Of a stretch of DNA of 8,050 bases, positions 7,091 to 8,050 are shown piece by piece; within the stretch, counting starts at the first letter, position 1, and the number at the start of each line of letters is the position of its first letter. The stretch is taken from IMG/VR virus record IMGVR_UViG_2695420855_000011, positions 1 to 8,050 of that record; one strand, given 5' to 3'. The notes under the pieces were generated by a model that ran no database searches, was not told the origin of the DNA, and saw only the letters and a list, made by a program, of their open reading frames with translations. A program made the translations under genes and the position numbers. Source of the DNA: a virus (Duplodnaviria; Heunggongvirae; Uroviricota; Caudoviricetes).

Positions 7091-7626
7091 ACAGCGGGCG
7101 CACGTCATCACCGTCAATAACGATTACGCCATCATTTTCCAGCTTGTACAGCCAGCGCCGGAAGTGCTTCATCTCATACCCCAGCTTTTTCATATCGTCG
7201 CGGAGAAGGGCGATAGTGCACGCCTCCCCGTGTGCTGTTCGTGTTCTGATGCACTGCCATAGCGCGGCGTGATTCTCCGTCTTGTTCCCTGCCTCCTCGA
7301 TGCGCTCCAGTTCAACGGGAGGGCGCGGCTTATCCACCACCACCAGCGACGTGATTAACTCCCCGTCAGCGTCGGTAAAAAGCTCCACCACGCGTAAGTC
7401 ATATGCTGCTTCTTTGAGTTCCTCCGCGTCCTTCATTTTGGTACATGAGATAACCAGCGCTTCGCTGCCTGCGTCCTCCCTGCGTATCCGGTATTCGGCG
7501 TCCAGTGATGCACGAAATGCACTGGAACCACGCGCCCCCTTTGTTTCATCCTTGCCGGAATGGTGAACCACCAGCACCGTTGCCCCTGTGCGCCGTTTCA
7601 GTTCGTCACACCCACGGATAAACGCC
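7089..7626 (-). pseudogene. 5'-truncated replicative helicase gene (RecA-fold, AAA_25/RepA-like C-terminal region plus a putative winged-helix tail)
   Basis: Frame encodes ...TGATVLVVHHSGKDETKGARGSSAFRASLDAEYRI..., the h-h-h-h-H-H-x-x-K / G-x-x-G-S-S-A motif region of RepA/AAA_25-type helicases. The frame is open up to the repeat junction at 7626/7627, with no Walker A region or native start. Confidence 0.6.
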
Positions 7627-8050
7627 ACGGGAATACATATTTATCCAGCGAACGCCAGATGTCTTTAATCGTGTTGGGGGCCAGATTCTGGCTGATTTTC
7701 ACCTGGTACCATGCCGCCGCCACATTTTCGAACGTGTTCCCTTGTCTTCGGGCCTCTGTCTCTCTTTTTTGCCTCTCGTGGTCCTGCGGGTCAGTTCCGG
7801 CACTGATTAACGTCCTGTACTCGCTACGGCGTTTTCTGGCATCAGCCAGGGAAACATCTTCAAGCGATCCAAAACTCAGCAATATTCTTTTTTTGTCCGA
7901 TGGTCGGTAGTAGGAAAATCTCCAGAGTTTTGATCCAGACGGTTTGACCAGGAGAAAAAGCCCTCCGCCGTCCTGCAGGGTGTACTCCTTTTGCGCTGGT
8001 CTGGCTGCTTTGATCTGCACTGTGGTTAATGGGTGTGTTTTTCTCGCCAT
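7598..8050 (-). pseudogene. Integrase 5' fragment (first about 141 codons, exact copy of 3322..3745) with a 9-codon novel tail
   Basis: Bases 7627-8050 are identical to 3322-3745. The frame runs from the integrase ATG (8048-8050) through the junction and ends as ...KYVFPWRLSVGVTN then stop at 7598. The window ends exactly at the start codon, so the upstream region is not visible. Confidence 0.7.

What the first reader, a model, noticed from the sequence alone, without database searches (positions are those of the whole stretch)
7598..8050. Stand-alone integrase N-terminal domain ORF created by the junction
The right-hand repeat keeps the integrase start and first about 141 codons (the putative arm-binding N-domain), then runs 9 codons into foreign sequence and stops. 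If expressed from the native int promoter, which is outside the window, this would be a catalytically dead arm-binding protein that could compete with the full integrase at the GTCAC and other arm sites. That would be a plausible regulatory consequence of the rearrangement.
Basis: inference. Interest (0 to 1): 0.45.

Follow-up and report, generated by a model that had tools for sequence, protein, structure and literature searches.

The report
Truncated integrase gene copy at rearrangement
The ORF is a real but ordinary leftover: the first third of a phage-satellite integrase gene, duplicated and fused out of frame to a broken replication gene, with no evidence that it regulates anything.

Summary
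Window 7598-8050 (minus strand) is a 150-codon ORF. Codons 1-141 are identical to the intact 413-aa integrase at 2504-3745. The last 9 codons are read out of frame from a truncated repA helicase gene. The fragment keeps the whole arm-DNA-binding domain (residues 8-95), about one third of the central domain, and no catalytic domain.

The host element is an E. coli PICI/P4-like satellite that normally sits at tRNA-Pro between yejM and yejO. In this window, 1.5 kb of the wild-type element appears to have been replaced by a second copy of a 1,367-bp segment (int 5' end, attP, capsid 3' end). That replacement explains both novel junctions.

Neither junction was found in 5,426 complete E. coli genomes or in any other collection searched. 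The repeat copies are 100% identical, so the event is recent or an artefact, and nothing shows selection.

N-terminal-only integrase ORFs are very common in databases. The phased GTCAC array is not a conserved arm site: elements with the same N-domain lack it. Six CGTATAACTAAA repeats are the better arm-site candidates.

A dominant-negative or autorepressor role is conceivable but untested. The promoter lies outside the window.

The parts
7598..8050 (-). int' ORF, 150 codons: 141 native integrase codons, then 9 out-of-frame repA codons and a stop
   Evidence: Pfam
7627..8050 (.). R1 copy b: exact 424-nt duplicate of 3322-3745 (5' end of int)
7626..7627 (.). Junction J2: repA 3' fragment joined to int 5' fragment. 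No in-register microhomology. An 8-mer ACGGGAAT starts R1 and also lies 8 nt beyond the breakpoint in wild-type repA.
   Evidence: absent from all collections
7089..7626 (-). repA' : 3' 538 nt (about 178 C-terminal codons) of the 466-aa RepA-family helicase gene. The N-terminal part is missing.
   Evidence: AAA_25 profile positions 168-194 only
2504..3745 (-). Intact integrase gene, 413 aa: Arm-DNA-bind_3 8-95, Phage_int_M 107-203, Phage_integrase 215-379
3746..4449 (.). Reconstituted attP: int-proximal arm 3746-3963, core TGGTCGGCACGAGAG (3964-3978, the 3' end of tRNA-Pro), capsid-proximal arm to 4449
3777..3832 (.). Four CGTATAACTAAA repeats (two inverted, two direct) between the att core and the int ATG. 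Best candidates for Int arm-type sites; they lie in the int upstream region.
   Evidence: TAAA motif in IntS arm-type sites (PMC2951348)
4040..4063 (+). Two further CGTATAAC(T/C)AAA repeats on the other arm
4208..4252 (+). Five GTCAC at exact 10-bp phase. Not conserved among elements that share the integrase N-domain. Function unknown.
3890..3917 (-). Terminator-like hairpin (12-bp stem followed by a T run) between the tRNA-derived core and int. It implies that int has its own promoter in 3746-3889.
   Evidence: sequence
1..239 (.). R2 copy a: exact duplicate of 4450-4688 (3' end of the capsid gene). Junction J1 at 239/240 joins it to the middle of a small hypothetical gene.
   Evidence: J1 absent from all collections
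4450..5376 (-). Intact capsid-like gene. Its 3' 239 nt are R2 copy b.

Best explanation
Window 7598-8050 is a gene remnant. It is the first 424 nt of the P4/CP4-57-type tyrosine integrase gene of an E. coli PICI/P4-like phage satellite, present as a second, 100%-identical copy and joined by a non-homologous junction to the 3' third of the satellite's repA helicase gene.

The two novel junctions of the window (239/240 and 7626/7627) are best read as one event. Write the wild-type circle as U1-R1-P-R2-U2-X. The window then reads R2|U1-R1-P-R2-U2|R1. That is the wild-type circle with X replaced by a duplicate of R1-P-R2. X is 1,511 bp and carries the 5' two-thirds of repA, the DUF4222 gene and small ORFs. 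R1-P-R2 is 1,367 bp and carries the int 5' end, attP and the capsid 3' end. The replacement looks like a templated insertion or double template switch on replicating or concatemeric satellite DNA. It leaves the element at 98% of unit length with two attP sites.

If that circle integrated through the inserted attP copy, the chromosome would read exactly as the window does: capsid' next to attR, and int' next to attL and tRNA-Pro.

Shown: the anatomy, the identity of the copies, the domain content, and the uniqueness of the junctions. Inferred: the single-event origin, the flanks, and the conclusion that int' is a by-product without a selected function. If transcribed, it would give a roughly 17-kDa catalytically dead polypeptide: the arm-binding domain, a broken central-domain stub and 9 junk residues.
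For: ORF and 141-residue identity. Exact repeats.

Mapping to wild-type elements at yejM-tRNA-Pro/yejO. The window is 100% identical to draft genome locus L004 over 539-3978 and 3971-7626. About 1,511 bp of the wild type is missing.

The attP is the exact product expected from attL x attR.

Domain content. Structures of the isolated domains.

Junctions are absent from 5,426 complete E. coli genomes, from GTDB representative genomes, IMG/VR and JGI metagenomes, and from a gene-product index of 153 billion positions.

N-terminal-only ORFs of this integrase type are common. Of the best 150 cluster representatives, only 46 have full integrase length and 57 are shorter than 200 aa. PHROGs also holds a 157-position family of unknown function, phrog_3423, that aligns end to end with Int residues 1-159.
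Against: The source record and its flanks could not be found, so the rearrangement cannot be shown to exist in a real molecule. What lies upstream of the int' start codon is also unknown.

If the flank is the native arm, int' has the same upstream region as the intact int and could be transcribed. Its arm-binding domain is of a kind that folds on its own. Activity therefore cannot be excluded.

The near-unit length and the retention of exactly one intact copy of every gene outside X hint at selection on the whole rearranged element, for example by capsid size. They say nothing about selection on int' itself.
Confidence: 0.58

Rival explanations
1. Assembly or library artefact: the junctions J1 and J2 do not exist in a real DNA molecule. 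The contig would be a wrong path through a mixture of integrated and excised satellite copies, or would be built on chimeric molecules. The ORF would then be an artefact of the record.
For: Neither junction, nor either junction-specific ORF product, occurs in any collection searched. The repeat copies are 100% identical. No complete E. coli genome holds the int-attP-capsid arrangement. The content is otherwise base-for-base a known wild-type element.
Against: There is no shared k-mer at either junction that could cause a de Bruijn mis-join: 0-1 nt in register. Both junctions are co-oriented. Together they form one coherent replacement, which keeps the length at 98% of unit size and preserves one intact copy of every gene outside the lost segment. 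The attP is the precise recombination product. Random chimeras would not be expected to do this twice within 8 kb.
Confidence: 0.27
2. Functional trans-acting regulator. Int' would be transcribed from a copy of the native int promoter. Its arm-binding domain would occupy the CGTATAACTAAA arm-type sites. This would titrate the sites needed for intasome assembly, or repress the int promoter that those sites overlap, and so damp excision and integration of the satellite.
For: The arm-binding domain is complete. Homologous N-domains are stable alone. Four of the six arm-type repeat candidates lie between a terminator-like hairpin and the int ATG, in the int upstream region. In the related KplE1 IntS system, arm-type sites overlap PintS, IntS represses its own gene, and excision needs a narrow Int concentration (PMC2951348). 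The lambda Int NTD (residues 1-64) is the arm-site-binding module (PMC9791396).
Against: Promoter and RBS are not in the window. The junction is unique and recent, so nothing shows selection. The truncated central-domain stub and the 9 foreign residues may destabilise the product. Wild-type relatives have no such gene. Short N-terminal int ORFs are abundant as mere fragments.
Confidence: 0.1
3. The window is a merged representation, or a true heterodimer, of two half-size defective mini-circles. One would be R2-U1-R1-attP (4,449 bp), the other R2-U2-R1-attP (4,305 bp), each made by one deletion and propagated with RepA supplied in trans. Int' would be the deletion scar of the second circle.
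For: The two units share R1-attP-R2 and sum to 8,754 bp, against 8,898 bp for the wild-type circle (computed). Each unit carries an attP. The iteron-like ori repeats are in the second unit (D4).
Against: This needs two independent half-genome deletions rather than one replacement. The first unit has no recognisable ori. No such molecules are present in IMG/VR or in the plasmid or phage collections.
Confidence: 0.05

Closest known systems
Heterobivalent P4/CP4-57-type tyrosine integrases at tRNA genes (P4 Int, IntA of CP4-57, IntS of KplE1/CPS-53)
   Same: The intact copy has the same three-domain architecture: Arm-DNA-bind_3, Phage_int_M and Phage_integrase. The gene abuts attL at the 3' end of a tRNA. 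Arm-type repeats containing TAAA lie in the int upstream region, as described for IntS (PMC2951348). PDB domain structures of this family match (3JU0, 3JTZ/3RMP, 2KJ8, 2KJ9, 2KKV).
   Different: The ORF under study has only the first domain and 36 of 96 positions of the second. It cannot bind core sites or catalyse strand exchange.
Lambda Int N-terminal domain (residues 1-64) studied as a separate polypeptide
   Same: It is an arm-site-binding module that can be separated from the catalytic part. It is the experimental precedent for an arm-binding fragment acting on att DNA (PMC9791396).
   Different: The lambda NTD is a laboratory fragment, not a natural gene. According to that paper, the NTD and CTD mixed as separate polypeptides do not recombine. 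Nothing there shows that a free NTD inhibits full-length Int in vivo. The sequence family also differs (Pfam Arm-DNA-bind_3 here).
Integrase pseudogenes and gene remnants in enterobacterial cryptic prophages and islands
   Same: A 5' gene fragment that runs into unrelated sequence and stops, next to mobile-element DNA. Such fragments are abundant: 57 of the best 150 representatives are shorter than 200 aa, and phrog_3423 is a family of them.
   Different: Here an intact, identical copy lies 4.3 kb away in the same element. The fragment arose by duplication and illegitimate joining, not by decay of the only copy.
Gram-negative phage-inducible chromosomal islands (EcCICFT073-type PICIs) and P4-like satellites
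   Same: The wild-type relatives are about 8.9 kb. They carry int, an alpA-like excisionase/regulator, a helicase replication gene with adjacent iterons, a small terminase subunit homologue and a capsid-like gene, and they lack tail and lysis genes. This is the general layout described in PMC6092414 and PMC6739421.
   Different: The copy in the window lacks an intact repA, carries a duplicated int'-attP-capsid' segment, and has an internal attP. Induction by a helper phage was not tested. Whether the terminase-like protein is an Rpp-type redirector is unknown.

Membership tests
Tyrosine recombinase (phage integrase) family, heterobivalent P4/CP4-57 type | N-terminal arm-DNA-binding domain (Pfam PF13356) | tested here: met
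   int' residues 8-95, profile positions 1-83 of 83, E 6.2e-24. Matches PDB 3JU0 and 3JTZ via the identical residues of the full-length copy.
Tyrosine recombinase (phage integrase) family, heterobivalent P4/CP4-57 type | Complete central core-binding domain (PF22022 or SAM-like) | tested here: not met
   int' covers only profile positions 1-36 of 96 and scores 21.6 bits, below the 27-bit cut-off. The intact copy covers 1-96.
Tyrosine recombinase (phage integrase) family, heterobivalent P4/CP4-57 type | C-terminal catalytic domain (PF00589) with the catalytic tyrosine | tested here: not met
   Absent from int'. Present in the intact copy at residues 215-379, E 5.7e-29.
Dedicated stand-alone recombination regulators (RDF/Xis-like or other conserved att-binding accessory genes) | A gene conserved at the same position in related elements | tested here: not met
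   Wild-type relatives L001-L013 have no such ORF. The junction and its product were found nowhere.
Dedicated stand-alone recombination regulators (RDF/Xis-like or other conserved att-binding accessory genes) | Demonstrated effect on direction or efficiency of recombination | not testable with these tools
   Needs excision/integration assays with and without int'.
Gene remnant (pseudogene) created by rearrangement | Truncated relative to an intact homologue, with the reading frame running into unrelated sequence | tested here: met
   141 of 413 codons, then 9 codons of repA read in a frame offset by 2, then a stop.
Gene remnant (pseudogene) created by rearrangement | No conservation of the truncated form. 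Evidence of recent origin. | tested here: met
   424/424 identity to the intact copy. The junction is unique.
PICI / P4-like phage satellite (host element) | int at a specific att site, alpA-type regulator, own replication module, packaging-redirection gene(s), small size, no tail or lysis genes | tested here: inconclusive
   All gene classes are present in the wild-type relatives. In the window, repA is truncated. Helper dependence was not tested.

The most novel reading that the evidence does not exclude
The rearranged satellite makes, from a duplicate of its native int promoter, a free arm-binding domain. That domain occupies the CGTATAACTAAA sites, represses Pint and poisons intasome assembly. 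It would be a naturally arisen dominant-negative integrase fragment that locks a two-attP, replication-defective satellite in place, or otherwise tunes its resolution.
Probability: 0.07. Interest if true: 0.5.

Novelty: new member of a known kind. Interest (0 to 1): 0.17.

Why it matters
As it stands it matters little. It is one more truncated integrase ORF, and it should not be annotated as a regulator.

If the fragment were shown to be expressed and to depress excision or int transcription, it would be a natural example of a mobile element regulated by a free arm-binding domain.

The surrounding architecture is the more useful lead. A replication-gene segment has been replaced by a size-matched copy of the att-spanning segment, which gives two attP sites. 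If real, this bears on how satellite genomes rearrange under a capsid-size constraint.

Tried and rejected
1. Finding the source. J2 and J1 were searched as exact patterns in GTDB representative genomes, IMG/VR and JGI metagenomes. Junction-centred 160-bp queries were run against 5,426 complete E. coli genomes. The whole window was searched against the phage and plasmid collections. The two junction-specific ORF products were looked up in the gene index. The attP-specific pattern was searched in IMG/VR. All were negative, so flanks and read support remain unknown.

2. Tandem wild-type copies in complete genomes. No genome has int-attP-capsid contiguous.

3. GTCAC as arm sites. Rejected: the array is absent from O26 and O111 elements with the same or near-identical int 5' sequence.

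4. A frameshift fusion Int(1-141)-RepA(C-terminal part). The frames are offset by 2, and by eye I saw no slippery heptamer in the 30-nt overlap. Rejected.

5. A de Bruijn mis-join at a shared k-mer. Rejected: there is no in-register homology at either junction.

6. Symmetry of the breakpoints about the iteron-like ori repeats. The midpoint of the arc skipped at J1 falls in the iterons, but that of J2 does not. Treated as coincidence.

7. A consensus sigma-70 scan found no promoter upstream of int. Only a weak by-eye candidate exists: TAGTCA, 17 nt, TATAAG.

8. Phage records that match the fragment carry full-length integrases, not stand-alone N-domains.

9. Structure prediction was not run. 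Solved structures of the isolated domains already answer the fold question.

Full report
**1. The observation**

The minus strand of 7598-8050 carries a 150-codon ORF whose ATG is the last triplet of the window.
- Its first 141 residues are identical to those of the intact 413-aa integrase at 2504-3745 (minus strand).
- From residue 142 it reads WRLSVGVTN and stops, where the intact protein reads FIGNTPIDT.
- At DNA level, 7627-8050 is a 424/424 copy of 3322-3745.
- The nine foreign codons belong to the 3' part of a RepA-family helicase gene (7089-7626, minus strand), read in a frame offset by 2.

**2. Domain content**

Pfam results:
- Intact protein: Arm-DNA-bind_3 at 8-95, Phage_int_M at 107-203, Phage_integrase at 215-379.
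- Fragment: the whole first domain (E 6e-24), only profile positions 1-36 of 96 of the central domain (below the cut-off), and no catalytic domain.

PDB sequence search:
- N-domains of CP4/P4-like integrases have been solved as isolated polypeptides. 3JU0 aligns to residues 8-106, and 3JTZ/3RMP also match.
- The central domain has been solved separately (2KKV, 2KJ9, 2KJ8, covering about 99-214).

A cut at residue 141 therefore leaves a domain that can fold on its own, a broken helical stub and 9 junk residues. It is catalytically dead.

**3. The element**

The window is a rearranged copy of a small E. coli satellite that normally lies between yejM/tRNA-Pro and yejO.
- The wild-type order is attL(tRNA-Pro)-int-hyp-alpA-(icd/ash region)-DUF4222-repA-small ORFs-terS-like-capsid-like-attR. 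This was seen in O26:H11 11368 (L001), O111 E2863 (L002), ZH48 (L003) and ten draft genomes that encode the identical capsid protein (L004-L013).
- The window is 100% identical to L004 over 539-3978 and 3971-7626. Only a mosaic patch at 359-538 differs.
- Gene content (AlpA-like excisionase/regulator, small terminase subunit homologue, HK97-type capsid homologue, helicase with adjacent CCCCACTTTT iterons, no tail or lysis genes) puts it among the PICI/P4-like satellites (PMC6092414, PMC6739421).

**4. The rearrangement**

Naming the pieces:

| Piece | Window coordinates | Content |
|---|---|---|
| R2 | 1-239 and 4450-4688 | capsid 3' end |
| U1 | 240-3321 | |
| R1 | 3322-3745 and 7627-8050 | int 5' end |
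| P | 3746-4449 | attP |
| U2 | 4689-7626 | |

- The window reads R2|U1-R1-P-R2-U2|R1.
- P is an exact attP. Its left arm equals the attL arm of L004, its right arm equals the attR arm, and they are joined at TGGTCGGCACGAGAG, the 3' end of tRNA-Pro.
- Missing altogether is X, about 1,511 bp: the 5' two-thirds of repA, the DUF4222 gene and small ORFs.
- Written as a circle, the wild type is U1-R1-P-R2-U2-X.
- If one more P follows position 8050, the rearranged form is U1-R1-P-R2-U2-[R1-P-R2]. X has been replaced by a 1,367-bp second copy of the att-spanning segment.
- One templated insertion (double template switch) then accounts for both novel junctions.
- The size is 8,754 bp against 8,898 bp.
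- Exactly one intact copy of every gene outside X is retained.
- If such a two-attP circle integrated through the inserted attP, the chromosome would read exactly as the window does, from the capsid' stop codon to the int' start codon, with int' next to attL. This paragraph's single-event model and the flanks are inference.

Junction details:
- Neither junction has in-register microhomology.
- The 8-mer ACGGGAAT that begins R1 also occurs 8 nt beyond the breakpoint in wild-type repA. This is the kind of near-junction homology seen in polymerase template switches.

**5. Is it real, and is it conserved?**

Neither junction occurs in any of the following:
- 5,426 complete E. coli genomes;
- GTDB representative genomes, IMG/VR or JGI metagenomes;
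- the phage and plasmid collections.

The two junction-specific ORF products are not in the 153-billion-gene index. No complete genome has the int-attP-capsid arrangement.

With 100% identical repeat copies, the event is either very recent or not real. Against a trivial mis-assembly:
- there is no shared k-mer at the junctions;
- the two junctions are co-oriented and form one coherent replacement;
- the attP is precise.

I rate a real molecule as more likely than an artefact (roughly 2:1), but I cannot prove it without the reads.

**6. The proposed mechanism**

Arm sites:
- The GTCAC array is striking: five copies at exact 10-bp phase, 4208-4252.
- It sits in a roughly 290-bp module that the O26 and O111 elements lack, although their int 5' sequence is 100% and 95.8% identical. 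It is therefore not a conserved arm site of this integrase.
- CGTATAACTAAA is conserved on both arms in all relatives. It occurs six times in the window against 0.03 expected: two inverted plus two direct at 3777-3832, and two direct at 4040-4063. The same layout is found in L001-L004.
- In the related IntS/KplE1 system, the arm-type sites share a TAAA motif, overlap the intS promoter and mediate negative autoregulation, and excision needs a narrow Int concentration (PMC2951348).

Promoter region:
- A terminator-like hairpin (3917-3890, minus strand) separates the tRNA-derived core from int. Int must therefore have its own promoter within 3746-3889, where the four repeats lie.
- The consensus scan finds no promoter there. 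By eye there is a weak TAGTCA-17-TATAAG candidate.

A free arm-binding domain could in principle compete for these sites or repress Pint. The lambda NTD is the experimental precedent for a separable arm-binding module (PMC9791396). All of this is inference. The int' promoter is outside the window, and nothing indicates selection.

**7. Base rate**

N-terminal-only ORFs of this integrase type are ordinary.
- A full HMMER scan of 1.84 billion cluster representatives gave 15,910 hits.
- Among the best 150, only 46 have integrase length (330-460 aa) and 57 are shorter than 200 aa.
- PHROGs holds a 157-position family of unknown function (phrog_3423) that aligns end to end with Int residues 1-159.
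- Phage records that match the fragment carry full-length genes.

The existence of such an ORF is therefore no evidence of function.

**8. Verdict**

The most likely explanation is a recent duplication-junction remnant inside a rearranged, replication-defective PICI-like satellite. The rivals are an assembly artefact and, with low probability, a genuine dominant-negative or autorepressor fragment.

Interest is low for the ORF itself. The two-attP, size-compensated architecture is the more unusual feature and is recorded for follow-up.

Noticed in passing
window 1-8050 (junctions 239/240 and 7626/7627): The window reads as the wild-type satellite circle with about 1,511 bp (repA 5' part, DUF4222, small ORFs) replaced by a 1,367-bp second copy of int5'-attP-capsid3'. 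This gives two attP sites and 98% of unit length. It was not seen in any other record searched.
   Followed up: partly
window 3777-3832 and 4040-4063: Six CGTATAACTAAA repeats (0.03 expected) flank the att core. The layout is conserved in four related elements. They are likely Int arm-type sites, and four of them lie in the int upstream region.
   Followed up: partly
window 4208-4252: Five GTCAC at exact 10-bp phase, inside a roughly 290-bp module (4094-4381). The module is present in L003/L004-type elements and absent from the O26/O111 elements. Function unknown; a packaging or regulator binding site is possible.
   Followed up: partly
window 3930-3956, 3856-3872, 2026-2042: TCCGGTG pairs at 10-bp spacing lie next to the att core, in the int upstream region, and just upstream of the alpA-like gene (1801-2007, minus strand). 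They are candidate AlpA/excisionase binding sites.
   Followed up: no
window 3890-3917 (-): A strong terminator-like hairpin (12-bp stem followed by a T run) lies immediately downstream of the tRNA-Pro-derived core. It would terminate tRNA read-through before int.
   Followed up: no
window 803-890 (-) and 912-988 (-): Rfam matches above the gathering score to C4 antisense RNA (77.6 bits) and isrK (66 bits), in the icd/ash region of the satellite. This resembles a P1/P7 immI-like module.
   Followed up: no
window 6878-6922 and 7046-7090: Clusters of CCCCACTTTT-type iterons lie just downstream of the repA 3' end. This is the probable satellite ori. It is retained although repA is truncated.
   Followed up: no
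window 5792-5829 and 6046-6071: GTAACTTT(T) direct repeats lie inside and just upstream of the small-terminase-like gene (5536-6024, minus strand). Possible packaging recognition site.
   Followed up: no
L007 (GCA_051817525.1), locus 1-6350: The right half (DUF4222 to capsid and attR next to yejO) is the same at about 99.9%. The left half differs: another integrase (409 aa), another AlpA, and different chromosomal neighbours (M20 peptidase, LysR). This suggests recombination between satellites at different att sites, or a chromosomal rearrangement.
   Followed up: no
window 359-538: A mosaic patch: 21 substitutions and a 3-nt indel in 180 bp relative to L004, in an otherwise 100% identical element.
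   Followed up: no
window 7619-7634 vs wild-type repA (L001 9247-9262): The 8-mer ACGGGAAT that begins the duplicated int segment also lies 8 nt beyond the repA breakpoint in all wild-type copies. This near-junction microhomology is compatible with a template switch.
   Followed up: partly
PHROGs phrog_3423: A 157-position PHROG of unknown function aligns end to end with the first 159 residues of this integrase. Its members appear to be N-terminal-only integrase ORFs annotated in phage genomes.
   Followed up: partly
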